From IMG/VR virus record IMGVR_UViG_3300034101_003424, positions 1 to 64,000 of that record: 64,000 nucleotides of DNA. One strand, written 5' to 3'. Below are positions 5,601 to 53,279 of this stretch, piece after piece. The first letter of the stretch is position 1. Each line of letters starts with the position of its first letter. This DNA comes from a virus. The translations under genes were made by a program, and so were the position numbers. The notes beneath the pieces are model-generated. The model made no database searches and had not been told where the DNA came from. It saw only the letters and a list, made by a program, of their open reading frames with translations.

Positions 5601-5764
5601 CCCAAAAATATAATAGAATTAGGCGTCATTCTCTCCTCAATTATTTTATACAATTTTTCAAACACTTCTATGTATTCCTCATGTCTTTGATAATTGTAAA
5701 CATGAATGTCTGAAATGTGAAAAATCTTATCCACTTTTCTTCCTGTGTTCTTTATTAGAATCAT
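2633..5764 (-). CDS. Fused Mre11/SbcD nuclease - Rad50/SbcC ATPase (T4 gp47-gp46-like) recombination/repair protein
   Basis: N-terminal phosphoesterase motifs DIH, GGDIVH, GNHD, YHG, GDIHKHQ; Walker A SPNASGKST; long coiled coil with CVYC zinc hook; signature ASGME; Walker B FFIDEGFGVLD; H-loop ISH. Confidence 0.93.
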   Translation of the reverse strand: MILIKNTGRKVDKIFHISDIHVYNYQRHEEYIEVFEKLYKIIEERMTPNSIIFLGGDIVHSKTNMSPELFSVVSNLLSTLCNMLPTIVILGNHDLNLNNKTRLDALTPIINSLNLPTLHFLNETNVYQYEQIGFSLLHVKDKIENVIPAKSFDAETKILMYHGPVKNSATAYGYLLEGNYLDVLEHADYDYILLGDIHKHQYLNLEKTAAYPSSLIQQNFGEDLTHGIIEWDLNKNTSEFIKIASSNGYYTFKLKNDKVAEKIPGDLPYNLNVAITAENCTQEFIDSFCLALEKKYNVLRIKKPKVTKFIIDNGKGEVSLDKENIIRDFEWRHSMLERYVQNELKQEYQADKFLDIHKTASLELDEPSEFIGVTWKPIRFEFSNMFSYGEGNVFNLGELGGLVGLFSPNASGKSTLLDAMTYCIFDKCSKTSSGAEVMNTSSDFFSCKLELSVAGESYFIERNGKKGKDGKVKVIVNFYKEDGTSLNGEQRYETNDSIRKYLGSYENFMLITMYDQHNKSDFIDKTQKDKKDLLYKYFDIDIFEKLNDTSKEHLKQLKYEIENHQKQKYNESVTEYENNIIDIKSKLTQVETSLELNKKSSDVLSIQIENKRKELTPYPKQSVNYATKIDEESRNEATLSSSLEDKRKSFVEARNALKTHLSELESMGEVADVSSDLVTIRKTLSDFDRDIAVAESEIKSSSKLIDHLQGYEHDPNCVYCVKNNKYALEGEKAKKEYPELLNKLDKLKQSKKELGESVKNLETADSLYKKYKDKINETERLKSNLDNIESQANIIKEKIQISKNLILDYSEKLKEQESYKDIEQKNAEIDSEIAKLLDEKKLIDDAVYQLAYTIGGHKSTITSNESKIKDIKIKIKKFKDDTLTYNNYFVFEKATRRDGIPLFIIKNYLPVLENVVNDALKNVAAFNVQFELSDKTLEVFISYVNGPKWPLSLASGMERFISSLAIRAALNHVTVLPKPDFFFIDEGFGVLDSDNIANVGLFLEELTSYFRFILCISHLDVVKDYVAKELFIVKDNGHSQLIS

Positions 5765-13760: not shown

Positions 13761-13774
13761 TTTGTTTGTTTTAT

Positions 13775-13782
13775 AATAAATA
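13775..13782 (-). promoter_or_regulatory. Putative late promoter TATTTATT
   Basis: gTATTTATTataaaacaaacaaaATG; same motif as about 10 other intergenic sites. Confidence 0.65.
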
Positions 13783-13799
13783 CTTTGAAATATAATATT

Positions 13800-36769: not shown

Positions 36770-36778
36770 AAATTAAAT

Positions 36779-37462: not shown

Positions 37463-37466
37463 TTTT

Positions 37467-38051: not shown

Positions 38052-38054
38052 GTT

Positions 38055-38651: not shown

Positions 38652-38655
38652 AGTT

Positions 38656-39294: not shown

Positions 39295-40109
39295 AACAAA
39301 AGATATTTTTTAATTCCACATTACCTAGAAGTGGAAGTACATTATTACAAAATATAATGGGACAAAATCCTGAATTCTTTGTAACACCGACATCAGGTCT
39401 AATTGATTTGATGCTAGGAGCAAGAATAGGATACAATCAAAACTATGAATCTAAGGCAGGTGATACAGAAATGTGGAGAGAAGGATTCTATAAATTTTGC
39501 GGGGAAGGAATAAAAGCATATATAGCATCACAGACATCAAAACAATATTACTTAGATAAGAATAGAGTCTGGGCATTCTACTATAACCTATTATCAAACA
39601 TGGTAGAAAAACCAAAAGTATTATACATGGTTAGAGATTTACCATCCATATTTGCATCCATGGAAAAGAAGTTTAGAATGAATCCTGACAAAGATGATGG
39701 TACTATGGATAATGTAAAGATGAAAGGAACTACAACACATAAGAGAGTTGAATTATGGGCTCAATCACATCCTGTAGGTTATTCATTAGAAAAATTGTAT
39801 CAGACTTTGTTGGATGGTACAGCTTCCAACTTTTTATTTATTAGATATGAAGATTTGTGTAGTAATCCTGATAATGTAATGAAAAGCATCTATCAATATT
39901 TAGAGTTAGATGAATTTAAACATGATTTCCAACATATAAGTCAAGTCACCACCGAAAATGATGCAATACATGGAATATATGGAGACCATGTGATAAGACC
40001 ATATTTACAAATGTTGCCAAATGATTCAAAAGAGATATTAGGATTACATACCGTAGATTTGATTAAAGAGAATTATAAATGGTATTATGATTTCTTTGGG
40101 TATAAATAA
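39291..40109 (+). CDS. Sulfotransferase
   Basis: PAPS-binding LPRSGSTLL, DKNR.W, MVRD...I.AS, IRYEDL..NP. Confidence 0.88.
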   Translation: MKQKIFFNSTLPRSGSTLLQNIMGQNPEFFVTPTSGLIDLMLGARIGYNQNYESKAGDTEMWREGFYKFCGEGIKAYIASQTSKQYYLDKNRVWAFYYNLLSNMVEKPKVLYMVRDLPSIFASMEKKFRMNPDKDDGTMDNVKMKGTTTHKRVELWAQSHPVGYSLEKLYQTLLDGTASNFLFIRYEDLCSNPDNVMKSIYQYLELDEFKHDFQHISQVTTENDAIHGIYGDHVIRPYLQMLPNDSKEILGLHTVDLIKENYKWYYDFFGYK

Positions 40110-40122
40110 AGTTGGGAGAGGA

Positions 40123-40130
40123 TATTTATA
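40123..40130 (+). promoter_or_regulatory. Putative late promoter TATTTATA
   Basis: 10 nt before the first propeller gene ATG. Confidence 0.7.
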
Positions 40131-40140
40131 ATAAAATAAT

Positions 40141-41091
40141 ATGGCAAAATTACAGAGTACAGAGATAGTAGGTGTTGCAAATAGACCTGCAACAATATGT
40201 TCAAATACAATGTGCATTTGGTTTGACACAACTAATTTAAAAACGGTTATTTCGTATGTTCTTGGTACATCTTGGTCAGCAGGTGGTGCAATGATAACTG
40301 CAAGACTAAGTTTAGCAGGTGCAGGGTCACAAAACGAAGGACTTGCATTTGCGGGTTATGGAGGAACTAATTGCACAGAAGAATACAATGGTACATCTTG
40401 GTCAGTAGGTGGTACTTTGGCAATAGGAAGATACCCTTTGGGTAGTGCAGGTACACAGAATGCAGGACTTGCTTTTGGTGGGAATCCATTTGGTATGTGT
40501 ACAGAAGAATATAATGGCACAAGTTGGGCAGCAGGTGGTGCTTTAATAAGAAGTAGGCAATTATTAGCAGGAGCAGGAACGCAAAATGTAGGACTTGGAT
40601 TCGGAGGTTACCCCGATACTGCTTCAGTGTGTACAGAAGAATACAATGGCACATCTTGGGCAGCAGGTGGTGCACTTATAACAGGTAGAAATTCATTAGC
40701 AGGGGCAGGAACACAAAATGAAGGACTTGCTATAGGAGGGTACGCAGTAGGTTTTATTAGAGTATCTTGTACAGAAGAATACAACGGCACATCTTGGTCA
40801 GCAGGAGGTGCTTTAATAACTGCAAGAAAATCATTAGCAGGAGCAGGAACACAAAATGTAGGACTTGCCTTTGGGGGAACTACAGCTTCCCTTGTATCAT
40901 GCACAGAAGAATACAATGGCACATCTTGGTCAGCAGGAGTTCCGTTAATAACAGCAAGAGATAGATTAGCAGGAGCAGGAACACAGAATGAAGGACTTGC
41001 TATGGGTGGAGTAAACGGCCCTTCGATAGTTTCATGTACAGAAGAATATAATAAACCATTAACATCAGTAGTAGTAGATTCAATACAATAA
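40141..41091 (+). CDS. Six-bladed Kelch-like beta-propeller protein 1 (putative receptor-binding/adhesin)
   Basis: Six repeats WSAGGALITAR..LAGAGTQN.GLA.GG....CTEEYNG; N-terminal RPATIC..C.WFDTT module. Confidence 0.8.
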   Translation: MAKLQSTEIVGVANRPATICSNTMCIWFDTTNLKTVISYVLGTSWSAGGAMITARLSLAGAGSQNEGLAFAGYGGTNCTEEYNGTSWSVGGTLAIGRYPLGSAGTQNAGLAFGGNPFGMCTEEYNGTSWAAGGALIRSRQLLAGAGTQNVGLGFGGYPDTASVCTEEYNGTSWAAGGALITGRNSLAGAGTQNEGLAIGGYAVGFIRVSCTEEYNGTSWSAGGALITARKSLAGAGTQNVGLAFGGTTASLVSCTEEYNGTSWSAGVPLITARDRLAGAGTQNEGLAMGGVNGPSIVSCTEEYNKPLTSVVVDSIQ

Positions 41092-42977
41092 TATGGCAAA
41101 ATTACAAAGCACAGAGATAGTAGGTGTTGCAAATAGACCTGCAACAATATGTTCCAATAGTGTTTGTATTTGGTTTGATACGACTAATACTAAAATAGTT
41201 TATTCATATTGTGGGTATAGTGGTGCAGGTGTCTGGTCAGCAGGGGGTGCTTTGATAACGGCACGAAGATATTTAGCAGGTGCAGGGTCACAAAACGAAG
41301 GACTTGCAGCAGGAGGTTTTACAACTGTAGTGGTATCATGTACAGAAGAATACAATGGTACATCTTGGTCAGCAGGGGGTGCATTGATAGTAGCTAACTA
41401 TGCACATGAAAGTGTTGGTACACAAAATATAGGTCTTGTAATTGGTGGTTATAACGGAAGTATTAATTTAGCTTGTACCGAAGAATACAATGGCACATCT
41501 TGGTCAGTAGGGGGTGCGTTGATAACTGCAAGAAGGGCATCTGCAAGTGGAGGTGTACAAAATGAAGCCTTTGCCGCAGGAGGTCTTACAAGTGTTGGTG
41601 TATCTAATACAGAGGAATATAATGGGACATCTTGGTCAGCAGGAGGAGCATTGATAACAGCAAGATATGTTTTAGCAGGAGCAGGAACGCAAAATGTAGG
41701 ATTAGCTATGGGAGGTTTTACAAATGTGAATGTATCTTGTACGGAGGAATATAATGGTACATCTTGGTCAGCGGGAGGTGCAGTAATAGTAGCAAGGTCA
41801 AATTTAGCAGGAGCAGGTACGCAGAATGAAGCATTAGTTATGGCAGGTGAAATACCCGCAGCATCAAGTTGTACAGAAGAATATAATGGTACAAGTTGGT
41901 CAGTAGGTGGTGTTTTAATAACGGTAAGGACACATATACCTGCAAGTGGAGGTTCTCAGGGAGCTGCATTTTTAGCAGGTGGATGGACAGGAGCTGTTAC
42001 ATCTTGCACCGAAGAATACAATAAACCATTAGCAATAATAGACTGTATTAAATAGAATATACAATATGGCAAAATTACAGAGTAGTGAAGTTGTTGGAGT
42101 TGCAAATAGACCTGCAACAATATGTGTAAATACTGTTTGTTTATGGTTTGATACAACTACTCAAAAACCAATGGCATCTTATTGTGCAAGGAGTGGTGCA
42201 GGAGCTTGGTCAGCAGGAGGTGCGCTGATAACAGCAAGATTTTATTTAGCAGGAGCAGGAACACAAAATGCAGGACTTGTGGTTGGAGGGTATACAAATG
42301 CAAGTGTAGCAAATACAGAAGAATATAATGGTACGTCTTGGTCAGCAGGTGGTGCAATTATAACAGGTAGATATGATTTAGCAGGAGCAGGAACACAAAA
42401 TGAAGGACTTGCTATAGGAGGTTATACAAATGTATCTTTGTCTTGTACAGAAGAGTATAATGGAACATCGTGGACAACAGGAGGTGCTTTAATAACAGCA
42501 AGATGGGGATTAAGAGGTGCAGGTGAGCAGAATTCAGGACTTGTAACAGGCGGTTTTACGAATGTAACTGTTTCATGTACCGAAGAATATAATGGCACAT
42601 CTTGGTCAACAGGAGGTGTAATGATAGTAGGCAGACGCCCATCAATGTCAGCAGGATTTCAGAATGTAGGACTTGCAGCAGGAGGTTTTACGAATGTAAA
42701 TGTTTCATGTACCGAAGAATATAATGGCACATCTTGGTCAACAGGAGGTGTAATGATAATTGCACGATGTTATTCATCAGGAGCAGGAACACAAAATGAA
42801 GCCTTTGTTGCAGGAGGTTATACAAATGTATGTGTGTCTTGTACAGAAGAGTATAATGGAACATCGTGGACAACAGGAGGTGCTTTAATAACAGCAAGGC
42901 ATACTTTAGCAGGAGCAGGTACACAAGGGGCAGGACTTGTAATGGGAGGTTATATAATTTCTTGCACAGAAGAATAC
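40264..42977 (+). repeat. Propeller-blade coding repeats (about 126-138 nt unit), 18 blades in three tandem genes
   Basis: Conserved gaagaata(c/t)aatgg(c/t)acatcttggtcagcagg and ttagcaggagcaggaacacaaaatg frameworks separated by variable loops. Confidence 0.92.
41093..42055 (+). CDS. Six-bladed Kelch-like beta-propeller protein 2
   Basis: Same architecture; first ~60 nt nearly identical to 40141. Confidence 0.8.
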   Translation: MAKLQSTEIVGVANRPATICSNSVCIWFDTTNTKIVYSYCGYSGAGVWSAGGALITARRYLAGAGSQNEGLAAGGFTTVVVSCTEEYNGTSWSAGGALIVANYAHESVGTQNIGLVIGGYNGSINLACTEEYNGTSWSVGGALITARRASASGGVQNEAFAAGGLTSVGVSNTEEYNGTSWSAGGALITARYVLAGAGTQNVGLAMGGFTNVNVSCTEEYNGTSWSAGGAVIVARSNLAGAGTQNEALVMAGEIPAASSCTEEYNGTSWSVGGVLITVRTHIPASGGSQGAAFLAGGWTGAVTSCTEEYNKPLAIIDCIK

Positions 42978-43016
42978 CTAAAATCATCATACACAATAGT
43001 AAATTGTATCTTATAA
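42066..43016 (+). CDS. Six-bladed Kelch-like beta-propeller protein 3
   Basis: Same architecture; internal blade duplications at DNA level. Confidence 0.8.
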   Translation: MAKLQSSEVVGVANRPATICVNTVCLWFDTTTQKPMASYCARSGAGAWSAGGALITARFYLAGAGTQNAGLVVGGYTNASVANTEEYNGTSWSAGGAIITGRYDLAGAGTQNEGLAIGGYTNVSLSCTEEYNGTSWTTGGALITARWGLRGAGEQNSGLVTGGFTNVTVSCTEEYNGTSWSTGGVMIVGRRPSMSAGFQNVGLAAGGFTNVNVSCTEEYNGTSWSTGGVMIIARCYSSGAGTQNEAFVAGGYTNVCVSCTEEYNGTSWTTGGALITARHTLAGAGTQGAGLVMGGYIISCTEEYLKSSYTIVNCIL

Positions 43017-43044
43017 TTTACATATAACAAAAAATAGTTTTAAT

Positions 43045-43920
43045 ATGAATAAATACGTTATTTGGCACATTCAAGGAGGTTTAGGAAAAAATGTGGCAGC
43101 AACAGGATTACCAAAGACAATAAAAGAAGTATATAGTGACAGACAACTTATAATGGTTGTGTCATATCCCGAAGTTTTCCTAAACAATCCTTATGTTGAT
43201 AGGGTATATCCGTTAGGTAATTGCCCCTACTTTTACGAGGATTTTATAGAGAATAAGGATACCCTTGTTTTTAGGCATGAACCTTACAATCAAACAGGAC
43301 ATATTTTAAAGCATAAGCATTTAATTAATAATTGGTGTGACTTACTTGGAATAGAATACAGCAATCAAACCCCTCAATTATACCCCAACTACTCAGAGAA
43401 GATAAATGCGAAGAAATGGTTTAGAGATAAGCCTGTCGTAGTATTACAAACATCAGGTGGAGAGTTAGAATCAAAAAATGTATATTCATGGTGTAGAGAT
43501 ATGCCACAAGATATAGCACAGTTAATTGTAGATAAATATAAAGATTCATTTCATATATTTCATGTATCAAGGCAAGGAGGATATGTTTTAAATAATGTAG
43601 AAAGAATTGATACTAAATTATCTAACATGGAATTATTTAGCATGTTAACTGTATCATCTAAGAGATTTTTAATTGATTCATCTTTGCAACATGCAGCGGT
43701 AGCCATTAATTTACCATCTGTTGTATTTTGGATTGGGACATCTCCGCAAGTTTTTGGTTACGATATGCATACGAATATTGTGGCGAAGCAGATTAATAAT
43801 AAGAATCATTTAATTGGCTCTTACCTATTTGACTTTCAGTTTGATTACAATGTGCATGAATGTCCGTACAGTACCTTAGAGGAAATGTTTGATATAAATG
43901 ATGTAATAAATAAGATATAA
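43045..43920 (+). CDS. Glycosyltransferase, GT-B fold (GT9/heptosyltransferase-like)
   Basis: QGGLGKNV..T, VFLNNPYVD, IDSSLQHAA.A..LPSVVFW. Confidence 0.75.
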   Translation: MNKYVIWHIQGGLGKNVAATGLPKTIKEVYSDRQLIMVVSYPEVFLNNPYVDRVYPLGNCPYFYEDFIENKDTLVFRHEPYNQTGHILKHKHLINNWCDLLGIEYSNQTPQLYPNYSEKINAKKWFRDKPVVVLQTSGGELESKNVYSWCRDMPQDIAQLIVDKYKDSFHIFHVSRQGGYVLNNVERIDTKLSNMELFSMLTVSSKRFLIDSSLQHAAVAINLPSVVFWIGTSPQVFGYDMHTNIVAKQINNKNHLIGSYLFDFQFDYNVHECPYSTLEEMFDINDVINKI

Positions 43921-44838
43921 ATGAAATTTTGCATAGCTACATTGACTCATAGATATGAAGATAGAGATGTTTATTTAAGAAAGACTATAGAAAGTTTTAT
44001 AGATAATACAGAATTTGACGGCATGTTTGATTGGTACATTCATTGTAATGGTCAATATGATTTAATGGATGTTGTCATTAAAGAGATGGCTAGTAAATAT
44101 TGGGATAAGATTAACTTTTACTATTCCTCATCTCCTGATAACATGGGAGTAGGTGTTGGTATTAATTATTTGAATTCATTGGTTAGAGATTATGAGTATG
44201 TTTTATTTTTAGAAGGAGATTGGATTTGTTTGCCCGGCGAAATTTCTGGTCATAATGATTGGTTAAGAGATTGCCTTAATTACTTAGACGAAAACAAAAA
44301 CATCAGTCAAGTGTTACTAAGGAGATACATTAGTGATTTGGATGATAGGCAGTATGGATATGGGTATTGGATACGAGAAGATAATATAAAAAGTGTGGGG
44401 AAGTTAAAAAATACATATCTCCATTTACATAAGAAAGAATATACCAACAATCCATACATAAGAAGAAACAATGACTTTTATGATAAGAACATATTACCAT
44501 TAAATGAATTCTATGATGAAAATGGATTACCTAATGAAATTAAAGGTTTATCCATGTGGGGACAAGCTGAGATACAAGCAGAGTCAAAAGGATATGAAAT
44601 AGAATCATGTTATCTAGCATTTGGGAACATGGTACATTGTGAAGCATGGCATTATTATAAAGAGTATGATAAATTAATTGAGGAAGATATGACATGTAAA
44701 AAGTATTTAGATGTTGGTAAAGCAGGATGTAAATATGGATACTTCTTCCCCGCAAAAAAGTTCTGTGAAGTATGTGACCATTCTAAAAACTTCACGGATT
44801 TAGAAAGACACGAACAGGAATACGAAAGTAAATTATAA
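43921..44838 (+). CDS. Glycosyltransferase, GT-A-like
   Basis: YLRKTIESF, NMGVGVGIN, YEYVLFLEGDW; Cys-containing C-terminus. Confidence 0.65.
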   Translation: MKFCIATLTHRYEDRDVYLRKTIESFIDNTEFDGMFDWYIHCNGQYDLMDVVIKEMASKYWDKINFYYSSSPDNMGVGVGINYLNSLVRDYEYVLFLEGDWICLPGEISGHNDWLRDCLNYLDENKNISQVLLRRYISDLDDRQYGYGYWIREDNIKSVGKLKNTYLHLHKKEYTNNPYIRRNNDFYDKNILPLNEFYDENGLPNEIKGLSMWGQAEIQAESKGYEIESCYLAFGNMVHCEAWHYYKEYDKLIEEDMTCKKYLDVGKAGCKYGYFFPAKKFCEVCDHSKNFTDLERHEQEYESKL

Positions 44839-44842
44839 GGAT

Positions 44843-45772
44843 ATGACACATAAAAGTAATTTTGAGAATGTTTTTTGGCATATAGACAGTATGAGATTAA
44901 TTAGCAACGACTTATATGAAGTAAGCGGTTGGATTTTTAGTACAGAAGGAAGTGTTAAAAAAGTAATTATTGGAGACGTAGAATATGCGAATCTCCAAAA
45001 TGGATTGTACCCTAGAAAAGATGTCAAAGAGGTATATCCTGATTTACCTAATGATCTGGTGGGTTGGACTTTCATGGTTAAACCCTCTAATGTAAATGCT
45101 CCTATAGATATTATTTTGGATAACGAAGTGCAGGTTTCAAATATCGGCACCTTAGATTCCTGGCATGTCTTTAATTCCGGTTTTAATCCTCACGCTTCTA
45201 AAGATATTGTTGTTGTAGATAATTTTTACATGCAACCAGACTTAGTGAGAGACTATGCTATTCATAATCTAAAATATTCCGAATCTGATTACCACAGAGG
45301 CAGAAGAAGTGATACCTCTTTTATACTAAATGGAACACTAGAAAGATTTGAGGAGATATTAGGGAGACCTATCTATAATTGGAACCATCCGGAATATGCC
45401 AATGGGAGATTTCAATATTGTACTTCGACAGATCCTATTGTATATCATGTAGATTCTCAAAAGTATGCCGCCATGGTTTACTTAACGCCGGATGCACCTT
45501 TACAGAGTGGAACCGCAACATACAAAAGCATTCACACAAAAAAGACAAAGTTTGATGAAGCTAGTGGTAAAGATTACGAGAAAGCATTTAAGGGAAGAAG
45601 TAGCGAATTAAATTTTTATGATAAGACATCTTTTGAACTAGTTGATAATATAGCTAACGTATATAATAGATTAGTTTTGTTTGATGCTAAAAATATTCAT
45701 GCTGCTGTAAACTACTTCGGTGACACTAAAGAAAATAGTAGATTTTTCCATTTATTCTTTTTTGATATATGA
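44843..45772 (+). CDS. 2OG-Fe(II) oxygenase (DUF6445-like) with N-terminal Ig-like domain
   Basis: IVVVDNFY..PD.VR, YHVD, AAMVYLTP, NVYNRLVLFD...IH, RFFHLFFF; N-terminal VSGWIF...R.DV...YP. Confidence 0.8.
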   Translation: MTHKSNFENVFWHIDSMRLISNDLYEVSGWIFSTEGSVKKVIIGDVEYANLQNGLYPRKDVKEVYPDLPNDLVGWTFMVKPSNVNAPIDIILDNEVQVSNIGTLDSWHVFNSGFNPHASKDIVVVDNFYMQPDLVRDYAIHNLKYSESDYHRGRRSDTSFILNGTLERFEEILGRPIYNWNHPEYANGRFQYCTSTDPIVYHVDSQKYAAMVYLTPDAPLQSGTATYKSIHTKKTKFDEASGKDYEKAFKGRSSELNFYDKTSFELVDNIANVYNRLVLFDAKNIHAAVNYFGDTKENSRFFHLFFFDI

Positions 45773-47622
45773 AGACTAGATTCCAGGTTATAACAAGATG
45801 TACAAGACCTCAAAATCTTTTACAGATATATGATAGTTTTAATTATACTTCAACTAGCAATCATTTTGTAAATTGGCATGTGTTATTTGACACCTCGTCT
45901 TTGATTGATATTGATTCTAAATTACTTCAGGAATTATATAAGAGAGATGCCATTTTACATTTTTTAGAAAGTGATGGTACCGATTATCTATATCCTCAAA
46001 TAAGTGAACTTGTTAGTAATCTTGATGGAGGATGGGTTGTAATTATGGATGACGACAATATATGCTATCCTAATTATTTTGATGTCCTTAGTGATGAAAT
46101 AAAGAATAATAGCAAGTTGGCTTATGTTTACGAACAAGAAGTAAATGGTAGAGATTTCACCGGACTAGACATAAGGAAAGTCGGCCCGGAGCACATGAAG
46201 TTAAAACATATTGATTCAGCACAATATATCATACATACCTCTTTACATCAAAAATTAAAATATGAACCCGGATATGATGCTGATGGTAAATTTATAGAAA
46301 AATTATATGACGAACATTCTGATAAATTTGGTTTCATAGAAAAACCACTGTGTTATTATAATGCTTTAGCGGTAGAATCAAAAGCTAGAGTTCCTAAAGT
46401 TTTATATTTGGGACCAGATAAACCAGAATTAAAAAGTGTAAAGTATGCAGATTATGAAGACGATTCTCTAAATGTAAAATATATTGAGAACGATCAAAAC
46501 ATAAGTAAAGATATAGCTGATTTTAATCCTGATTCTATCATAAGCATTTCAGATGATTATTATAAAGAATATAAGAACCTATGCAACCAGCCATCCTATG
46601 TTAGAAATAGATGGATTAACTTAAATCCTCACCACGATAAAGAAACAGGGATATCTTATAATGTAGGAGAGATAGCATATAATTGCGCGATGAATAGCAT
46701 ACTTAGGTCTGACTACGATGCGGTGGTTTCTTTCTTTACACCAATTTACAACACGAAAGAAAAACTTTGGACAACTTATGACTCAGTAAAGAATCAGACA
46801 TTTCCGAACTGGGAATGGGTTATAGTTAATGACTCTTCTGACGGAGGTAAAACTTTAAAGATTGCCTTGGAAATAGCATCACAAGACCATCGAGTTAAGG
46901 TATATGACTTTAGAGAAAAATCAGGTGGTATTATAGGCGAATCTAAATACAGAGCAGCAACACTTACTAAAGGCAGATGGTTAGCAGAGTTAGATCATGA
47001 CGATTATCTTATGCCAGATTGCGCAAAGTACATAATAGAGGCAGCTAATAAGTTTCCAGATGCAGGATTCATATATACCGATAGCGTAGAACTAGATGAA
47101 TTTCACAACTCTATGACTTATCCGGATGGGTTTTGTTTTGGTTATGGTAAGTATCGAAAAGAGAATCATTATAGGAATACTTGGGATGTTGTAGATTCTC
47201 CGAACATCAATCCAAAAACAATTAGACACATAGTAGGCGTACCAAACCATGTTAGAGTATGGAGAAGAGATGTTTATTTTTCGGTGGGAGGACACAATAG
47301 AAATCTATCCATCGCAGATGACTATGAATTAATCGTCAGAACATTTCTAAAGACTAAGTTTGTAAAAATACCAAAATTAGGATATCTTCAATACATCTAT
47401 AATAATTCAAATGGAAGAAATACACATGACTTATCAAGAGCAGATATCCAGAGAAGAGTCAGATCAATCATGTATTTTTATAATGATGCAATAAATGAAA
47501 GATTTAAAGAATTAGGAGTGATTGATTATGCATATAAAGAAAATGAAAACAATCCTTTAAATGTAGAAAGTAGATTTGGAGAAGATGAAAACTATGTAAA
47601 TTATATATTCAATGACTTATAG
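45769..47622 (+). CDS. Two-domain GT2 glycosyltransferase
   Basis: N-terminal TRCTRPQNL...MDDDN; C-terminal FTPIYNT, SVKNQTFPNWEWVIVNDSSD, ELDHDD, ADDYEL. Confidence 0.88.
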   Translation: MKTRFQVITRCTRPQNLLQIYDSFNYTSTSNHFVNWHVLFDTSSLIDIDSKLLQELYKRDAILHFLESDGTDYLYPQISELVSNLDGGWVVIMDDDNICYPNYFDVLSDEIKNNSKLAYVYEQEVNGRDFTGLDIRKVGPEHMKLKHIDSAQYIIHTSLHQKLKYEPGYDADGKFIEKLYDEHSDKFGFIEKPLCYYNALAVESKARVPKVLYLGPDKPELKSVKYADYEDDSLNVKYIENDQNISKDIADFNPDSIISISDDYYKEYKNLCNQPSYVRNRWINLNPHHDKETGISYNVGEIAYNCAMNSILRSDYDAVVSFFTPIYNTKEKLWTTYDSVKNQTFPNWEWVIVNDSSDGGKTLKIALEIASQDHRVKVYDFREKSGGIIGESKYRAATLTKGRWLAELDHDDYLMPDCAKYIIEAANKFPDAGFIYTDSVELDEFHNSMTYPDGFCFGYGKYRKENHYRNTWDVVDSPNINPKTIRHIVGVPNHVRVWRRDVYFSVGGHNRNLSIADDYELIVRTFLKTKFVKIPKLGYLQYIYNNSNGRNTHDLSRADIQRRVRSIMYFYNDAINERFKELGVIDYAYKENENNPLNVESRFGEDENYVNYIFNDL

Positions 47623-48277
47623 TGTAATCATTCCTACATTATGGAGATGTAACTTAGAGGAATTTTATAATACCCTGCGAATTTTCTGCGGGGAACCTCA
47701 AATAAAAGAAATCATATTAATAGACAATGACATAACATTTAAACAAACAATAAAACAAAACATATTAAACATAAGCTATAAAATAAAATACTATCCACAA
47801 CAAGAAAATATATATGTAAACCCATCATGGAACTTAGGCGTATCAAAATCCAGCGGGGAACACTTAATGATAGTAAATGATGACTTCCACATAACATCTA
47901 AAAAAACATTAAAAAACATATTAAAAACACATCAAGATAATAAAGACATATTAAATAGCATATATGGAATATCAACATCATGCTACATAGAAGAACCAAC
48001 ATCAAATAAAATATACTTAACAGACAATGAAGGAAGAGGAACCGGGTGGGGATGCTTCTTCATATTACATAAAGATACATGGACAGACATCCCAAATGAA
48101 TTAAAAATATGGTTCGGAGATGACTACATAACAAAACATGTATTAAGAAATGGAGGAAAAGTCTATACATTCAAAAATATACATGCATATCCATTCTCAC
48201 AAACAATATCTCTACAAATATTTAATAGCATCCTAGATAATGACACTAAAATATACATGGAGAAATATGACATTTAA
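47612..48277 (+). CDS. GT2 glycosyltransferase
   Basis: SVIIPT, IILIDN, NIYVNPSWNLG, IVNDD, GWGC, IWFGDD. Confidence 0.85.
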   Translation: MTYSVIIPTLWRCNLEEFYNTLRIFCGEPQIKEIILIDNDITFKQTIKQNILNISYKIKYYPQQENIYVNPSWNLGVSKSSGEHLMIVNDDFHITSKKTLKNILKTHQDNKDILNSIYGISTSCYIEEPTSNKIYLTDNEGRGTGWGCFFILHKDTWTDIPNELKIWFGDDYITKHVLRNGGKVYTFKNIHAYPFSQTISLQIFNSILDNDTKIYMEKYDI

Positions 48278-48290
48278 CTTTGTTACTGCA

Positions 48291-48298
48291 TATTTATA
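48291..48298 (+). promoter_or_regulatory. Putative late promoter TATTTATA
   Basis: Upstream of fibre-propeller gene 48317. Confidence 0.7.
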
Positions 48299-48316
48299 AG
48301 TAATAACATGTAAGTA

Positions 48317-50737
48317 ATGAGAATAGACCAAATAGAATTATCAGGTTCGTTATTTGTCACAGCAAGTGCATCAATCATATTAGGACAGACTAAGATATCC
48401 TCTGACAACAACGGGTCAATATCTTTTACAAATGTCAGTAACCCAACGCAAAAAGTAATAGGTTCATATTCGGGTTCATTCACAGGTAGTATAAAATTAC
48501 CTACTATTCCACTTGGTACTTCCGAAACAAATATAGTATTGGTTAATGGTAGTGGAGGTCTAGTATATAGAAGCAACCTATCTTTAACGGGTGCTCAAGG
48601 TAGTCAAGGTGCAACAGGAGTACAAGGAACTAACGGCACTGTAGGTACACAAGGTTTTCAAGGCAATCAAGGTTCTCAAGGTAACCAAGGTATTCAAGGA
48701 ACAGTAGGAACACAAGGAACTAACGGCACTGTAGGTACACAAGGTTTCCAAGGCAATCAAGGAACAACGGGTTTACAAGGCACTACAGGAGCTCAAGGCA
48801 CTCAAGGATTTCAAGGTATTCAAGGAACAGTAGGTACACAAGGAAGTCAAGGAGCAAATATAGCATCCACTGAATCAAGACCATCTCCCATAAACGCAGA
48901 CCAAATGTGTTTATGGTTTGACACCACAAGTAAGATGCCAATGGTTTCTTATTGCATTAACACATCATTAGTGGGTTCTTGGTCAGCGGGAGGGGCATTG
49001 ATAACGGCAAGATTCGGTTTAGCAGGAGCAGGAACACAAAATGCGGGACTTGTAGCAGGAGGTTATATAAATGCAAACGTAGCCTGCACCGAAGAATATA
49101 ATGGCACATCTTGGTCAGCAGGTGGTGTATTGATAACAGCAAGACGTTATTTAGCAGGTTTAGGGACACAAAATGCAGGACTTGTAACAGGAGGCTATAC
49201 AAATGAAGTAGTAGCCTGCACCGAAGAATATAATGGCACATCTTGGTCAGTAGGTGGTGCATTAATAACACCAAGATATGGTTCAGCAGGAGCAGGAACA
49301 CAGAATGCAGGTCTTGCAACAGGAGGTTATTTTTCAGGAGGAGGTGTGTCTTGTACAGAAGAATACAATGGTTCATTATGGTCAGCAGGTGGTGCATTGA
49401 TAACAGCAAGACAAATATTAGCAGGTGCAGGTTCACAAAATGCAGGTCTTGTTGCAGGAGGTTATTTTTCAGGAGGAGGTGTGTCTTGTACAGAAGAATA
49501 TGATGGTACATCATGGTCAGCAGGAGGTACACTAATAACAGCAAGGTATGCTTTAGCAGGAGCGGGAACACAAAATGCTGGACTCGCATCAGGAGGATAC
49601 CCAACTGTATCCTGCACCGAAGAATACAATGGCACATCTTGGTCAGCAGGAGGTGCATTGATAACAGCAAGAGGTTATTTTGCGGGAGCAGGTACGCAAA
49701 ATGCAGGACTTGTAGCAGGAGGGATTGGAGGCACAGCATGTACAGAAGAATACAACGCACCAACCGAAATCGTTGACCGTAGTTTAGACTCATCTTACAA
49801 TACAGCACAATATCCAAATAGACCTGAGATACTTGAAACAGGAATGTGTATGTGGTTTGATTCTGTGAATAGAAAACCTATGGTATCTTACTATGGGTTT
49901 GGAGGTATTGGTTCTTGGTCAGCAGGTGGTGCATTGATAACTGCAAGAGGTTATTTAGCAGGAGCAGGGACACAAAATGAAGTATTTATAGCAGGAGGTT
50001 ATGCTGGAGCTAATGTATCATGCACAGAAGAATACAATGGCACATCTTGGTCAGCAGGAGGTGCATTGTCTACTGCAAGACATGTTTTAATAGGAGCAGG
50101 AACACAAAATGTAGGACTTGTAGCAGGAGGAAATAATGGTGCAAATGTTTCATGCACAGAAGAATACAATGGCACATCTTGGTCAGCAGGTGGTTCATTG
50201 ATAACAGCAAGAGGATATTTAGCAGGTACAGGAACACAAAATGAAGCATTTGCAGCAGGGGGTTCTTCAAATACAATTGTCTCATGCACAGAAGAATATA
50301 ATGGCACATCTTGGTCAGCAGGTGGTGCATTAATAACAGCAAGATATCGTTTCGCAGGAGCGGGAACACAGAATGCAGGTCTTGCTATGGGAGGTGACAC
50401 AGGTGCGGGGACTGCCCTTACTTGCACAGAAGAATACAATGGCATTGCATGGTCAGCAGAGAGTGCAATGACAGTTTCAAAATTTTATTTAGCAGCAGCA
50501 GGAACACAAAACGAAGGTATTGCTTTTGCATCATATACAAAGGAAACTTGTACTGAAGAGTACAACGGTATATCTTGGTCAGCAGGTGGAGCAATGTCAA
50601 ATTCAAGATACGGCCCACTTGCAGGAGCAGGTACACAAAATGCAGGACTTGCAGCAGGAGGTACAGGCGGTGGAGTTGCTCGTTCTTTCACAGAAGAATA
50701 TAATAAACTACTTCAAATAGTTGATTGCTGCTTATAA
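48317..50737 (+). CDS. Collagen-like tail fibre carrying two six-bladed Kelch-like propellers
   Basis: MRID.I.LSGSL start, G-X-Q collagen, then 2x [RP....MC.WFD...PMVSY + 6 blades]. Confidence 0.85.
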   Translation: MRIDQIELSGSLFVTASASIILGQTKISSDNNGSISFTNVSNPTQKVIGSYSGSFTGSIKLPTIPLGTSETNIVLVNGSGGLVYRSNLSLTGAQGSQGATGVQGTNGTVGTQGFQGNQGSQGNQGIQGTVGTQGTNGTVGTQGFQGNQGTTGLQGTTGAQGTQGFQGIQGTVGTQGSQGANIASTESRPSPINADQMCLWFDTTSKMPMVSYCINTSLVGSWSAGGALITARFGLAGAGTQNAGLVAGGYINANVACTEEYNGTSWSAGGVLITARRYLAGLGTQNAGLVTGGYTNEVVACTEEYNGTSWSVGGALITPRYGSAGAGTQNAGLATGGYFSGGGVSCTEEYNGSLWSAGGALITARQILAGAGSQNAGLVAGGYFSGGGVSCTEEYDGTSWSAGGTLITARYALAGAGTQNAGLASGGYPTVSCTEEYNGTSWSAGGALITARGYFAGAGTQNAGLVAGGIGGTACTEEYNAPTEIVDRSLDSSYNTAQYPNRPEILETGMCMWFDSVNRKPMVSYYGFGGIGSWSAGGALITARGYLAGAGTQNEVFIAGGYAGANVSCTEEYNGTSWSAGGALSTARHVLIGAGTQNVGLVAGGNNGANVSCTEEYNGTSWSAGGSLITARGYLAGTGTQNEAFAAGGSSNTIVSCTEEYNGTSWSAGGALITARYRFAGAGTQNAGLAMGGDTGAGTALTCTEEYNGIAWSAESAMTVSKFYLAAAGTQNEGIAFASYTKETCTEEYNGISWSAGGAMSNSRYGPLAGAGTQNAGLAAGGTGGGVARSFTEEYNKLLQIVDCCL

Positions 50738-50799
50738 AATTTTGCGGAGAAGAACCAACATAAAAAAACACATGTACAATATAAACAAAATAAAATGTC

Positions 50800-50807
50800 T
50801 ATTTATA
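50800..50807 (+). promoter_or_regulatory. Putative late promoter TATTTATA
   Basis: Upstream of fibre gene 50828. Confidence 0.7.
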
Positions 50808-50827
50808 ATTAATAAACTCTACATTTA

Positions 50828-52279
50828 ATGAGAATAGATAAAATCCAATTATCAGGGTCTTTACTAATATCTTCAAGTTTATCTCGAAGTCCTTTACGAA
50901 TAAATGATAACTATTTATATATAAACCCACAAGGTAACATAGGAATAGGAACTACAAATCCTACCTCAAAATTAGTAGTAACAGGTAGCATAGCAGTACA
51001 AGGACAATTAAGAGCAACAACATTATCAGGCTCATTCACAGGAAGCATTAAATTACCTACTATACCACTAGGAACATCGGAGACAAATATAGTATTGGTA
51101 GATGGTAGTGGTGGTTTAGTATATAGAAGTAACCTATCTTTAACAGGAGCTCAAGGAACACAGGGTACACAAGGAACACAGGGTACACAAGGAACACAAG
51201 GAACACAAGGTTTCCAAGGCAATCAAGGACCACAGGGAAACCAAGGTATTCAAGGAACTAACGGAACAGTAGGAACTCAAGGTTTACAAGGTAACCAAGG
51301 ACCTCAAGGTAATCAAGGACCTACCGGAATACAAGGTACAAACGGAGCTCAAGGTTTCCAAGGCAATCAAGGCCCACAGGGAAACCAAGGACCAACAGGT
51401 ATTCAAGGCACAGTAGGTACCAATGGAAACCAAGGCAATCAAGGACCTCAAGGTAATCAAGGACCTACCGGAATACAAGGTACAGCAGGAACAAACGGAA
51501 ACCAAGGTAATCAAGGACCTACCGGAATACAAGGTACAGTTGGCACACAAGGTTTTCAAGGCAGACAAGGACCACAGGGTAATCAAGGCCCAACAGGAGT
51601 ACAAGGTACAATAGGCTCTGCTGGTCCATCAGGCCCTCCCGGTCCTCCTGGCCCTCCCGGACCATCAGGAGGTACAGGTCCGCAAGGAGCAGTAGGACCA
51701 AATGGTAGAATTTCACCGAGTGGTATTACACAGGGATCTTATGGATCTATTTCTATATCTGGAACTACAAATACTTATGCCGGTATTAACTTTAGTGACC
51801 CTTACATAACATTAATGGTAAATGTAGGAGCAACTGGATTTTATGTTAATAATAATTCATGGAGAGCATATTGGGATGCAAATGCTACCTTACAAAATTA
51901 TGGCGACGTAATTGCTTATGCTTCTGACAAAAGATTAAAAAATAATATAAAAAATATTCCAAATGCTTTAAGTAAAGTATTAAGTATAAATGGTGTAAAT
52001 TATAATTGGGATTTAGTTGAATGTAATAAATGGGGTTTTAATCCAAATGAATCAGATGTTGGGGTTATAGCTCAAGAAGTACAAGAAGTATTACCCGAAG
52101 CAGTAAAATATGCTCCATTTGATAGAGACCCAATAAAAGGAACAGATAGTATATCGGGTAAAGATTATTTAACAGTACAATACGATAAACTAATCCCCTT
52201 ATTAATAGAAGCGATAAAAGAACAACAACAACAGATTAATGAGTTAAGTAGTGAAATAAAAATACTAAAAGAAAAATAA
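50828..52279 (+). CDS. Collagen-like tail fibre with C-terminal peptidase S74 chaperone
   Basis: GNIGIGTTNP, G-X-Q collagen with GPP cap, SDKRLKNNI...GVIAQEVQEVLPEAV...[16 protein letters not shown]. Confidence 0.9.
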   Translation: MRIDKIQLSGSLLISSSLSRSPLRINDNYLYINPQGNIGIGTTNPTSKLVVTGSIAVQGQLRATTLSGSFTGSIKLPTIPLGTSETNIVLVDGSGGLVYRSNLSLTGAQGTQGTQGTQGTQGTQGTQGFQGNQGPQGNQGIQGTNGTVGTQGLQGNQGPQGNQGPTGIQGTNGAQGFQGNQGPQGNQGPTGIQGTVGTNGNQGNQGPQGNQGPTGIQGTAGTNGNQGNQGPTGIQGTVGTQGFQGRQGPQGNQGPTGVQGTIGSAGPSGPPGPPGPPGPSGGTGPQGAVGPNGRISPSGITQGSYGSISISGTTNTYAGINFSDPYITLMVNVGATGFYVNNNSWRAYWDANATLQNYGDVIAYASDKRLKNNIKNIPNALSKVLSINGVNYNWDLVECNKWGFNPNESDVGVIAQEVQEVLPEAVKYAPFDRDPIKGTDSISGKDYLTVQYDKLIPLLIEAIKEQQQQINELSSEIKILKEK

Positions 52280-52280
52280 C

Positions 52281-53258
52281 ATGCCTTTACCAAGTAGCGG
52301 ACAAATATCATTTTCACAATTAGCAGCTGAATTAGGAAACGCATGTTCAAATGTAAGTCTTAGAAGTTATTCCGCTTGTGCAAATTTAACATCTCCTGAT
52401 GGTATTACTGAGTTGTATGGTAAATCTTGTATACCTACTTATGGAGCAGGTACTTGGTCGAGTGGGGGGGCAATGATAACGGCACGATTTTCTTTAGCAG
52501 GAGCAGGAACACAAAATGCAGGACTTGCAGTAGGAGGTACTACAGGTACTGATGTATCCTCTACCGAAGAATACAATGGCACATCTTGGTCAGCAGGAGG
52601 GGGATTGATAGTGGCAAGAAGATTTGTAGCAGGAGCAGGAACACAAAATGAAGGACTTGCGTTTGGGGGTTTTTCAAATGCAAATTTATCTTGTACAGAG
52701 GAGTATAACGGTACATCTTGGTCAACAGGTGGTGCATTAGCTACAGCACGATATGGCCTACTTGCAGGAGCAGGAACGCAAAATGCAGGACTTGTGGCGG
52801 GAGGAGGTGGCTGTCTAAGTAATACAGAAGAATACAATGGCACATCTTGGTCAGCAGGAGGGGGATTGATAGTGGGGAGAGGTTGTTTAGCAGGAGCAGG
52901 AACACAAAATGCAGGACTTGCGTTTGGGGGTTTTTCAAATGAAAATTTATCTTGTACAGAGGAGTATAACGGTACATCTTGGTCAACAGGTGGGGCATTG
53001 ATAAATGCAAGAAGAGTATTAGCAGGAGCAGGTACTCAAAATGAAGGTCTTGCAACAGGTGGTTTTCCAAGAACCTCTTCTACAGAAGAATACAATGGCA
53101 CATCATGGTCATCAGGAGGGGCATTAATTACGGCAAGAAATAATTTAGCGGGAGCAGGAACGCAAAATGCAGGACTTGCGTTTGGGGGTTTTAGTGGTGT
53201 CTATTCATCTTGCACCGAAGAATATACAAAATCAGTAATAAGTATATGTTTAGGATAA
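52281..53258 (+). CDS. Fibre-tip adhesin: gp38-like N-terminal attachment module + six-bladed Kelch-like propeller
   Basis: MPLPSSGQIS...ELG...SL....P..ITELYGKS, then six blades; directly follows the S74 fibre. Confidence 0.75.
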   Translation: MPLPSSGQISFSQLAAELGNACSNVSLRSYSACANLTSPDGITELYGKSCIPTYGAGTWSSGGAMITARFSLAGAGTQNAGLAVGGTTGTDVSSTEEYNGTSWSAGGGLIVARRFVAGAGTQNEGLAFGGFSNANLSCTEEYNGTSWSTGGALATARYGLLAGAGTQNAGLVAGGGGCLSNTEEYNGTSWSAGGGLIVGRGCLAGAGTQNAGLAFGGFSNENLSCTEEYNGTSWSTGGALINARRVLAGAGTQNEGLATGGFPRTSSTEEYNGTSWSSGGALITARNNLAGAGTQNAGLAFGGFSGVYSSCTEEYTKSVISICLG

Positions 53259-53279
53259 AAAATAATAAAACAAAACAAA

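What the first reader, a model, noticed from the sequence alone, without database searches (positions are those of the whole stretch)
40141..53258. Antibody/VLR-like adhesin repertoire: 36 propeller blades with a fixed DNA framework and two hypervariable loops
Seen: five genes encode six 6-bladed Kelch-like propellers. Every blade is WSAGGALITAR-[xx]-LAGAGTQNxGLxxGG-[variable-length loop]-CTEEYNG. The frameworks are conserved even at synonymous sites. GAAGAATACAATGGCACATCTTGGTCAGCAGG occurs exactly at about 40906, 49619, 50027, 50159, 52567 and 52827; TTAGCAGGAGCAGGAACACAAAATG occurs at about 40834, 42247, 42378, 49019, 52494 and 52887. The two loops differ in almost every blade and are rich in R/Y/F/W. 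Established: in Kelch propellers such loops form the ligand-binding top face. Inference: the frameworks act as recombination handles so blades and loops can be shuffled within and between genes, giving a combinatorial receptor-binding library without a reverse transcriptase or invertase, possibly driven by the phage's own Mre11-Rad50/resolvase.
Basis: partly seen in the sequence, partly recalled or inferred. Interest (0 to 1): 0.88.

Follow-up and report, generated by a model that had tools for sequence, protein, structure and literature searches.

The report
Phage Kelch-propeller fibre heads, recombining blades
Five genes of an uncultured lake-water phage encode six compact six-bladed Kelch propellers that are probably host-binding heads of tail fibres. 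Their 36 blades share a DNA scaffold that recombines over evolutionary time, while the loops on one face all differ; I found no sign of an antibody-like diversity machine.

Summary
Genes A (40141-41091), B (41093-42055), C (42066-43016), D (48317-50737) and F (52281-53258) contain 36 blades of about 44 aa, arranged as six 6-bladed propellers. AlphaFold2 (pLDDT 90.7), Foldseek and a PDB profile search all identify Kelch. The two variable sites are the D-A and B-C loops, which form the ligand-binding face in Kelch proteins.

Scaffold DNA is more alike than codon usage predicts (same-codon fraction 0.65 against 0.43). Blades share synonymous codons within a phage lineage but only at chance level between lineages, which is concerted evolution. 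Whole modules come and go between close relatives.

The antibody/VLR reading is not supported. All copies are complete genes, and there are no silent cassettes and no reverse transcriptase. Contigs with no synonymous change have no loop change. Seven contigs from different samples are identical over 20.9 kb. Loops evolve at roughly neutral to mildly positive rates.

Fusions to collagen stalks and S74 chaperone domains point to fibre-tip adhesins, but binding is untested. The closest analogues are the Podospora HNWD WD40 genes and T-even gp38. This scan had already reached the same verdict on two other phage contigs.

The parts
40141..41091 (+). Gene A, 316 aa. Short conserved N-terminal anchor (40141-40272) followed by one six-bladed Kelch propeller (blades 40273-41061).
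   Evidence: ORF; blades; phrog_27227 match E 2e-44.
41093..42055 (+). Gene B, 320 aa. Anchor 41093-41233, blades 41234-42031. Recombination breakpoint at about 41230-41252.
   Evidence: Ortholog L010_5808 is 89% aa identical, and all six blades find their best match at the same position. Maximum chi-square test: 0 of 1000 permutations reach the observed value.
42066..43016 (+). Gene C, 316 aa. Anchor 42066-42206, blades 42207-42989. This is the protein that was modelled.
   Evidence: AF2 pLDDT 90.7, pTM 0.82, four strands per blade. Foldseek: KLHL17, KLHL12 and Keap1 at E about 1e-17 to 1e-15.
48317..50737 (+). Gene D, 806 aa. Fibre N-terminus and collagen triple-helix repeats (48317 to about 48853), propeller 1 (blades 48980-49765), linker (49766-49915), propeller 2 (blades 49916-50713).
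   Evidence: Pfam Collagen E 7e-14; blades. Blades 10-12 are 87-94% nt identical to blades 16-18 of L017/L018.
50828..52279 (+). Gene E, 483 aa. Collagen-like fibre with a C-terminal S74 intramolecular chaperone and no propeller. It shares its N-terminus with D. Listed as context.
   Evidence: Pfam Collagen E 2e-29 and Peptidase_S74 E 6e-18; tail-fibre PHROGs.
52281..53258 (+). Gene F, 325 aa. A different N-terminal anchor (52281-52454) and one propeller (blades 52455-53237). Mosaic, with breakpoints at about 52488 and at 52838-52873.
   Evidence: The anchor is 86-93% nt identical to syntenic orthologs, but the blades are only 63-75%. Blades 4-6 are 91-95% identical to the A-type gene L001_1566. 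Breakpoints. Blades F2 and F4 are 94% identical.
48852..53265 (.). Replaceable module slot holding the D propellers, E and F. It is absent or replaced in the closest relatives.
   Evidence: L057 and L058 have flanks 93-98% identical but diverge at 48852 and rejoin at 53255-53261. L060, L066 and L010 join 48270 directly to 53265.
2633..5764 (-). Fused Mre11-Rad50-type nuclease/ATPase, 1043 aa. This is the phage's general recombination machinery and is listed as context only.
   Evidence: Pfam Metallophos, AAA_23 and SMC_N; phrog_77 SbcC-like.

Best explanation
The five genes encode six compact six-bladed Kelch propellers that most likely serve as receptor-binding heads of tail-fibre-like appendages. 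D is a collagen-stalked fibre carrying two propellers per chain. A, B, C and F are single propellers with short conserved N-terminal anchors that presumably dock them on the virion. In every blade the D-A loop (two residues after the conserved Arg) and the B-C loop (after GG) point to the same face and form the probable ligand site. The opposite face and the strands are held constant.

The family diversifies by ordinary evolutionary processes:
1. Blades are homogenised or re-amplified lineage by lineage (concerted evolution).
2. Homologous recombination in the conserved scaffold and anchor DNA swaps whole and half propellers between genes and between phages.
3. Whole gene modules are gained and lost.
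4. Loop residues change at about the neutral rate or somewhat faster.

Shown here: the fold, loop topology, concerted evolution, breakpoints, module turnover and stability between samples. Inferred: virion location, adhesin function and the nature of the ligand.
For: Fold. AF2 gives pLDDT 90.7. Foldseek matches the KLHL17, KLHL12 and Keap1 Kelch domains at E about 1e-17 to 1e-15, TM 0.65-0.79. A profile search of the PDB hits Kelch at E 2e-15.

Loops on one face. The strand order D, A, B, C comes from DSSP on the model. In Kelch domains the substrate pocket is shaped by the DA and BC loops (PMC3597819).

Fibre context. D is fused to a collagen stalk, and E is a collagen fibre with an S74 chaperone. 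More than 3021 homologues were found, and many have the layout fibre N-terminus + one propeller + C-terminal S74 chaperone. Blade counts per ORF are multiples of six in all but a few short or contig-end ORFs. Kelch proteins of jumbo phages are annotated as virion structural proteins.

Concerted evolution. Codon choice is column-specific (Leu25 is CTT in 27 of 30 blades, although CTT is 12% of Leu codons elsewhere in the window). These choices are shared within the window's clade and differ in other lineages. The same-codon fraction is 0.61-0.69 within the clade and 0.34-0.52 between lineages (chance 0.35-0.45); it reaches 0.89 within L047. Long exact tracts are in excess: 27 pairs of at least 30 nt against 10.6 +/- 3.7 in shuffles.

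Recombination. Maximum chi-square gives 0 of 1000 permutations, and one breakpoint lies inside the 32-mer. Scaffold dS is 0.4-1.3 against 0.10-0.48 in the N-terminal anchor of the same gene, in 15 of 16 syntenic pairs. One blade matches a different blade position in a different gene at 92% nt.

Turnover. The D/E/F slot is empty or different in relatives with 93-98% identical flanks. The sulfotransferase gene is followed by two to five small propeller genes where the whole array is on the contig.

No programmed variation.
Against: There is no experimental or proteomic evidence that any of these proteins is in the virion or binds a host. The anchors' docking role is a guess. Loop dN exceeds scaffold dS only modestly and near saturation, so diversifying selection is not proven; relaxed constraint plus recombination would look similar. 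The N-terminal anchors offer few synonymous sites, so the dS contrast is noisy for any single pair. No near-identical relative of this window's own propeller genes could be found, and reads could not be mapped. Rare within-population mosaics therefore cannot be excluded.
Confidence: 0.66

Rival explanations
1. This is a high-frequency combinatorial shuffling system. Ectopic recombination between the 36 scaffolds during each infection cycle would routinely produce new blade and loop combinations, giving a standing receptor-binding library comparable to VLR or antibody repertoires.
For: Many exact 25-32 nt scaffold repeats are available as recombination substrates. Mosaic genes have breakpoints in the scaffold. 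Long shared tracts are in excess. The phage encodes its own Mre11-Rad50. F2 and F4 differ by 8 nt, all nonsynonymous, and 6 of them lie in codons 10-14.
Against: Every copy is a complete ORF, and there are no silent or partial cassettes anywhere in the record. Seven contigs from different samples are 100% identical over 20.9 kb, including four propeller genes. Contig pairs with zero synonymous differences have zero loop differences. Mean blade identity is only 70%, and a single pair exceeds 85%. The mosaic segments still differ by 5-9% from their partners, so those exchanges are old.
Confidence: 0.08
2. The propellers are virion or non-virion proteins with a role other than host-receptor binding. 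Examples would be decoration that makes particles stick to organic matter or mucus-like layers, scaffolds for the neighbouring glycosylation/sulfation enzymes, or enzymes. Loop variation would then reflect relaxed constraint.
For: No function is known for any member; all homologues are 'hypothetical' and phrog_27227 has unknown function. The genes sit among 2OG oxygenases, sulfotransferases and glycosyltransferases. Loop dN is about equal to dS, which is compatible with neutrality. The nearest relatives do without the D/E/F module.
Against: The propeller is repeatedly fused between fibre N-termini or collagen stalks and the S74 chaperone typical of fibre or spike tips. Variation is concentrated exactly on the Kelch ligand face. 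The pattern of a conserved anchor with a swapped head is typical of receptor-binding proteins. No catalytic family was matched.
Confidence: 0.18
3. This is a plain recent tandem duplication followed by divergence, with no recombination between copies. The scaffold similarity would be shared ancestry not yet erased.
For: Synonymous sites are substantially diverged (same-codon fraction 0.65; framework pS 0.45). There is only a weak signal for blade position or for propeller of origin.
Against: Blades within a lineage share synonymous states that differ between lineages, while syntenic blades in related phages are no closer than random blades. Breakpoints are significant. One blade matches a non-homologous position at 92% nt. 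Scaffold dS is well above the dS of the anchor in the same gene.
Confidence: 0.05

Closest known systems
Podospora anserina HNWD/NWD genes (het-d, het-e, het-r): WD40 propeller repeats in a multigene recognition family (Paoletti 2007, PMC1805685; Chevanne 2010, PMC2873952)
   Same: Both are beta-propeller repeats spread over several paralogous genes. In both, repeats evolve in concert within and between loci, a few positions on the interaction face are hypervariable, and recombination between repeats reshuffles recognition surfaces without a dedicated enzyme (abstracts read; matching patterns here).
   Different: These are Kelch blades, not WD40, and the setting is a phage fibre protein, not a fungal NLR. 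Blade number here is fixed in sets of six, whereas HNWD repeat number varies freely. HNWD repeats are far more alike at DNA level. High-rate instability was shown experimentally for HNWD and has not been shown here. RIP is absent.
T-even phage gp38 adhesin: conserved glycine-rich motifs separating hypervariable segments (Trojet 2011, PMC3157838)
   Same: Both are phage host-range determinants in which conserved motifs form the structural core and short hypervariable segments carry specificity. [quoted passage not shown] A small adhesin gene follows a fibre gene in both cases (E then F here).
   Different: The sequence and fold are unrelated (a six-bladed propeller here). There are 36 repeat units in five genes instead of one gene with four or five segments. 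Attachment of F to the tip of E is untested.
BTB-Kelch substrate adaptors (KLHL12, KLHL17, Keap1) and the Kelch superfamily
   Same: Both have a six-bladed Kelch fold with the GG doublet and conserved Tyr, Trp and Arg, and a ligand face built from DA and BC loops.
   Different: There is no BTB/BACK domain. The blades are shorter (about 44 aa) with B-C loops of 3-8 residues, against about 12 in KLHL proteins. Extra invariant GTQN and TEEY motifs are present. Pfam's Kelch models do not reach threshold.
Recently amplified, highly repetitive beta-propellers (Pereira and Lupas 2022, PMC9218822)
   Same: That paper reports propellers with near-identical blades arising repeatedly by amplification from single blades, in the Kelch superfamily and in viruses among others. 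The lineage-specific blade homogeneity seen here, up to 0.89 same-codon fraction in L047, fits that process.
   Different: That work does not describe phage fibre heads, spread across several genes, or loop hypervariability. Here inter-gene and inter-phage exchange is shown in addition to amplification.

Membership tests
Kelch beta-propeller superfamily | Six (or seven) blades, each a four-stranded antiparallel sheet arranged around an axis | tested here: met
   The AF2 model of gene C has pLDDT 90.7 and four strands per 44-aa unit. Foldseek gives E 2e-17 to KLHL17, and the top 50 hits listed are all Kelch domains or Kelch-based designs.
Kelch beta-propeller superfamily | Kelch sequence signature: hydrophobic strand ending in GG, then conserved Tyr, Trp and Arg | tested here: met
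   The relevant columns are G28 G29 (33 and 35 of 36 blades), Y44 (36/36), W1 (36/36) and R11 (34/36). The profile built from A1 hits PDB Kelch chains at E 2e-15 to 1e-8.
Kelch beta-propeller superfamily | Match to the curated Pfam Kelch models | tested here: not met
   No Pfam family at E <= 0.1 for A, B, C or F. The family is a divergent short-blade branch that is detected only by profile and by structure.
Diversity-generating retroelement target | Reverse transcriptase plus a template/variable repeat pair with adenine-specific differences | tested here: not met
   No RVT_1 match in the 92.7 kb record, which is 51% complete. The closest repeat pair, F2/F4, differs by C>G, A>G, A>G, A>T, T>G, G>T, A>C and C>A, which is not adenine-specific.
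VLR-like or silent-cassette gene-conversion system (VLR, pilE/pilS, vlsE) | One incomplete or expressed acceptor gene plus arrays of promoterless partial donor cassettes | tested here: not met
   All blade-like DNA in the record lies in five complete ORFs. Blade counts per ORF are multiples of six in all but a few short or contig-end ORFs.
HNWD-type concerted evolution of propeller repeats | Repeats more alike within a genome or lineage than between lineages, with exchange between loci | tested here: met
   Same-codon matrix. Blades 4-6 of gene F match an A-type gene of L001. A blade matches a different position at 92% nt.
HNWD-type concerted evolution of propeller repeats | Positive diversifying selection at a few surface positions | tested here: inconclusive
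   Columns 12, 14, 27, 30 and 32-37 have pN 0.49-0.71 against a framework pS of 0.45. The ratio of loop dN to scaffold dS is 0.3-1.8 at low divergence. No likelihood site model was run.
HNWD-type concerted evolution of propeller repeats | Highly variable repeat number per gene and demonstrated genetic instability | tested here: not met
   Blade number is locked to multiples of six; it is gene and propeller copy number that varies. Independent samples gave identical contigs.
Tail-fibre or tail-spike receptor-binding protein | Fibre or stalk module and/or a C-terminal S74 intramolecular chaperone in the same chain or the neighbouring gene | tested here: met
   D has a collagen stalk, and E has collagen plus S74. 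Relatives have the layout fibre N-terminus + propeller + S74.
Tail-fibre or tail-spike receptor-binding protein | Presence in the virion and binding to a host receptor | not testable with these tools
   This needs virion proteomics, cryo-EM and adsorption assays. The host is unknown.

The most novel reading that the evidence does not exclude
The multi-gene blade array could be a recombination-based host-range diversifier, a phage counterpart of the fungal HNWD system. During recombination-dependent replication, ectopic exchange between the 36 scaffolds would produce blade-mosaic propellers at a rate well above point mutation. A single burst would then contain rare variants with new binding faces, which consensus assemblies cannot reveal.
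Probability: 0.15. Interest if true: 0.75.

Novelty: new variant of a known kind. Interest (0 to 1): 0.48.

Why it matters
This is a very large family (more than 3000 homologues, all unnamed) of probable host-recognition modules in freshwater phages, and I found no paper on it in the library. It shows a clear division of labour. A DNA-homogenised scaffold serves both as the structural core and as the place where recombination occurs. One face carries all the variation, and whole heads are exchanged on conserved anchors. If binding is confirmed, the family would add to the known folds of phage receptor-binding domains. It would also help predict host range from metagenomes, and it offers a naturally modular, compact scaffold for engineering binders. 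It is also a phage example of concerted evolution of propeller blades, a process best documented so far in fungal immune-type genes.

Tried and rejected
- **Database searches.** Megablast of the region against GenBank phages gave no match. tblastn found only one weak Paenibacillus phage hit. Pfam's Kelch models did not hit.
- **DGR mechanism.** Rejected: no reverse transcriptase and no adenine-specific differences.
- **Silent-cassette or VLR mechanism.** Rejected: no partial copies outside the five ORFs.
- **Blade-position orthology inside the window.** Essentially absent: identity is 0.707 for the same position against 0.695 for different positions. A simple model of one ancient six-blade unit copied six times does not fit.
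- **N-glycosylation sequon.** The E-x-N-G-T motif in 30 of 36 blades, next to glycosyltransferase genes, was considered as a sequon. In relatives Asn alternates freely with Asp, as in the ordinary Kelch Y-D/N turn, so it is probably structural.
- **Contig and cluster look-ups.** The exact proteins are not in the clustered collection.
- **Literature.** Searches for phage Kelch receptor-binding proteins returned only author-name hits or unrelated propellers.
- **Complex prediction.** None was run, because the report does not claim a specific protein-protein contact.
- **Model coordinates.** These were not available, so the statement that both loops share a face rests on strand order and Kelch precedent, not on measured geometry.


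Full report
**Observation**

The region holds five plus-strand genes with propeller repeats: A 40141-41091, B 41093-42055, C 42066-43016, D 48317-50737 and F 52281-53258. Anchoring on TEEY gives 36 units of 41-46 aa: six in each of A, B, C and F, and twelve in D.

The 25-mer is exact at six sites and present at 25. Shuffles give zero in both cases. Two of the quoted coordinates are off by one (52566 and 42246).

Column entropy is near zero for W1, G19, Q21 and T41-E42-E43-Y44. It is high only at the two residues after Arg11 and in the 3-8-residue stretch after G28-G29. All 36 loop combinations are unique. Aromatic/Arg enrichment applies to the first loop (41%) but not the second (15%).

**What the proteins are**

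Pfam finds no Kelch domain. It finds only collagen repeats in D, and collagen plus the S74 endosialidase-type chaperone in the intervening gene E, 50828-52279. PHROGs places all five proteins in phrog_27227, function unknown.

A profile built from 46 single-propeller relatives hits solved Kelch domains at E 2e-15 to 1e-8. AlphaFold2 on that alignment gives gene C a pLDDT of 90.7 and pTM of 0.82, with four strands per repeat. Foldseek returns the KLHL17, KLHL12, NS1-BP and Keap1 Kelch domains at E about 1e-17 to 1e-15. In BFVD the model matches many phage Kelch proteins, some annotated as virion structural proteins of jumbo phages.

In the model each unit reads: strand D (WSAGGA), a loop containing the first variable pair, strand A (AGAGT), turn QN, strand B (hydrophobic residues ending in GG), the second variable loop, strand C (xTEEY), turn NGTS. 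By the antiparallel meander topology the D-A and B-C loops lie on one face, and the invariant A-B and C-D turns lie on the other. In BTB-Kelch proteins the substrate pocket is shaped by exactly these DA and BC loops (PMC3597819). I could not inspect coordinates, so the shared-face statement is inferred from topology.

**Context**

Around the propeller genes lie:
- baseplate-wedge and tail-fibre genes;
- several collagen-like fibres with S74 chaperones;
- a fused Mre11-Rad50;
- 2OG-Fe(II) oxygenases, sulfotransferases and GT2 glycosyltransferases.

D shares its N-terminus with E and carries a collagen stalk followed by two propellers. The family is very large: more than 3021 proteins at E <= 1e-10, all unnamed, and 575 stretches in IMG/VR. 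Many members have the layout fibre-type N-terminus + one propeller + C-terminal S74 chaperone. That layout places the propeller at the distal end of a fibre.

Blade counts per ORF are 6, 12, 18, 24 or 30 in nearly all complete ORFs; the few exceptions are short or contig-end ORFs. I therefore read the propellers as fibre heads, most likely receptor-binding. This is inference from architecture and has not been tested.

**Is the scaffold conserved at DNA level?**

Yes, but only partly. At conserved residues the fraction of blade pairs using the same codon is 0.65, against 0.43 expected from codon usage in other genes of the window. Some choices are column-specific: Leu25 is CTT in 27 of 30 blades although CTT is 12% of Leu codons elsewhere, and Gly46 is GGC in 17 of 30. 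Mean blade-to-blade DNA identity is 70%, with almost no effect of blade position or of propeller.

The same column-specific codons recur in related contigs of the window's clade. More distant lineages use other codons uniformly: L047 has ATT, GCT and TTA, and L054 has CTC and GCT. A matrix of same-codon fractions gives 0.61-0.69 within the clade and 0.34-0.52 between lineages, which is about chance (0.35-0.45). L047 reaches 0.89 internally. Blades therefore coalesce within lineages. This is concerted evolution or repeated re-amplification, as described for repetitive propellers in general (PMC9218822).

Within the window, long exact tracts between blades exceed what codon shuffling within columns allows: 27 pairs of at least 30 nt against 10.6 +/- 3.7, and 8 pairs of at least 40 nt against 0.8 (0 of 300 shuffles reach the observed values).

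**Recombination**

Syntenic genes in related phages keep their N-terminal anchors at 84-97% nt identity in most comparisons. Their blades mostly fall to 60-78%, which is the level of random blade pairs. Scaffold dS is 0.4-1.3 against 0.10-0.48 in the anchor of the same gene, in 15 of 16 pairs. Selection on protein cannot produce that contrast, whereas replacement by non-orthologous blades can.

Gene F shows the pattern most clearly:
- Its anchor is 86-93% identical to syntenic orthologs (L027, L034, L002), but its blades are only 63-75% identical to theirs.
- Its blades 4-6 are 91-95% identical to an A-type gene of L001, which has a different anchor and sits at a different locus.
- Maximum chi-square tests place breakpoints at about 52488 (F) and 41230-41252 (B), both in the first blade scaffold, with 0 of 1000 permutations reaching the observed value.
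- The internal switch in F lies between 52838 and 52873, inside the exact 32-mer at 52827-52858.

Blade 3 of B matches blade 5 of a C-type gene in L001 at 92% nt. Blades 10-12 of D match the last three blades of an 18-blade fibre in L017/L018 at 87-94%.

**Module turnover**

I sampled relatives by anchoring on the non-repeat glycosyltransferase gene at 47612-48277. The closest relatives (flanks 93-98% identical) lack the D propellers, E and F:
- L057 and L058 diverge at 48852, the end of the collagen repeats, and rejoin at 53255-53261.
- L060, L066 and L010 join 48270 directly to 53265.

Where the whole array is on the contig, two to five small propeller genes follow the sulfotransferase gene. 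L059 lacks the stretch from about 35.9 to 43.9 kb.

**Is it a programmed or fast diversity generator?**

I found no support for that.
- All blade DNA lies in complete ORFs.
- No reverse transcriptase is present in the record.
- Seven contigs from different metagenome samples are identical over 20,942 bp, including four propeller genes.
- Every contig pair with no synonymous difference also has no loop difference.
- By the Nei-Gojobori method, scaffold dN/dS is about 0.1-0.25. Loop dN is about equal to loop dS. The ratio of loop dN to scaffold dS is 0.3-1.8 at low divergence and about 1-2.5, up to about 4, at higher divergence.
- Among the 36 blades, columns 12, 14, 27, 30 and 32-37 have pN 0.49-0.71 against a scaffold pS of 0.45.

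This fits neutral to mildly diversifying evolution and is close to saturation. The youngest pair, F2/F4, differs at 8 nt. All eight are nonsynonymous, six lie in codons 10-14, and they are not adenine-specific. That is suggestive of selection on the loop, but the sample is too small to test.

**Comparison with what is known**

The closest mechanistic analogue is the Podospora HNWD family. There, WD40 propeller repeats in ten genes evolve in concert within and between loci, and four surface positions are under positive selection (PMC1805685, PMC2873952). The closest phage analogue is T-even gp38, where conserved glycine-rich motifs separate hypervariable segments and exchanges occur at the conserved motifs (PMC3157838).

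This family differs from both. It has a Kelch fold, blade number is locked in sixes, the repeats are spread over fibre-fused and free-standing genes, and divergence between blades is much higher. I found no paper on Kelch propellers as phage receptor-binding domains.

This scan had already flagged the same family on two other phage contigs, and the follow-up agents reached the same verdict. I reached mine from independent analyses on this DNA. I took the HNWD papers as a lead from those notes and then read them myself.

**Limits**

Rare mosaics within this phage's own population therefore remain untested. Function, virion location and ligand are all inferred.

**Verdict**

This is a large, uncharacterised family of probable fibre-head Kelch propellers that evolve by concerted evolution, scaffold-mediated recombination and module turnover. 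It is a new variant of a known kind of system and not an antibody-like machine.

Noticed in passing
window 48270-53265; L057, L058, L060, L066, L010: The whole D/E/F fibre module occupies a replaceable slot. The nearest relatives (flanks 93-98% identical) have the slot empty or filled with a shorter collagen fibre that has a different C-terminus.
   Followed up: yes
window about 35908-43920, compared with L059: A relative with about 90% identical flanks lacks the 8 kb block that carries the 2OG oxygenases, the sulfotransferase and propeller genes A-C. The modification enzymes and the small propellers may travel together as one accessory module.
   Followed up: partly
window, column 43-47 of each blade (for example 40906-40926): Thirty of 36 blades carry E-x-N-G-T, which matches the bacterial N-glycosylation sequon, and glycosyltransferase genes lie alongside. 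In relatives Asn alternates with Asp at this turn, so the motif is probably structural and not a glycosylation site.
   Followed up: partly
window, column 40 of each blade, and the N- and C-termini of A, B and C: There is one conserved Cys per blade (30 of 36, in S-C-T-E-E-Y), plus conserved Cys residues in the N-terminal closure segment and at the C-terminal end. These could be disulfide staples or a thiol ring in an extracellular protein.
   Followed up: no
window 2633-5764 (-): Mre11 (metallophosphoesterase) and Rad50 (AAA_23/SMC_N) are fused in a single 1043-aa protein.
   Followed up: partly
window 7103-8758 (-): A 551-aa protein with a concanavalin A-like/Laminin_G_3 lectin domain lies among the large structural genes. 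It is another candidate host-binding protein, unrelated to the propellers.
   Followed up: no
L011 compared with L012-L016, L020, L021 (locus coordinates about 1445-5404): Otherwise identical contigs differ by a 360-nt in-frame length change in a 1320-aa protein that ends in one propeller. This is probably repeat-number variation in its stalk.
   Followed up: partly
L047 (locus 9716-15448): The blades of this distant lineage share 89% of synonymous codons, so amplification or homogenisation was very recent there. It is the best place to look for ongoing conversion.
   Followed up: no
window 48957-49817 (-) and other minus-strand ORFs inside A-F: Long antisense ORFs (up to 286 aa, Leu-rich) run across the repeats. 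They appear to be by-products of the repeat composition and not genes.
   Followed up: no
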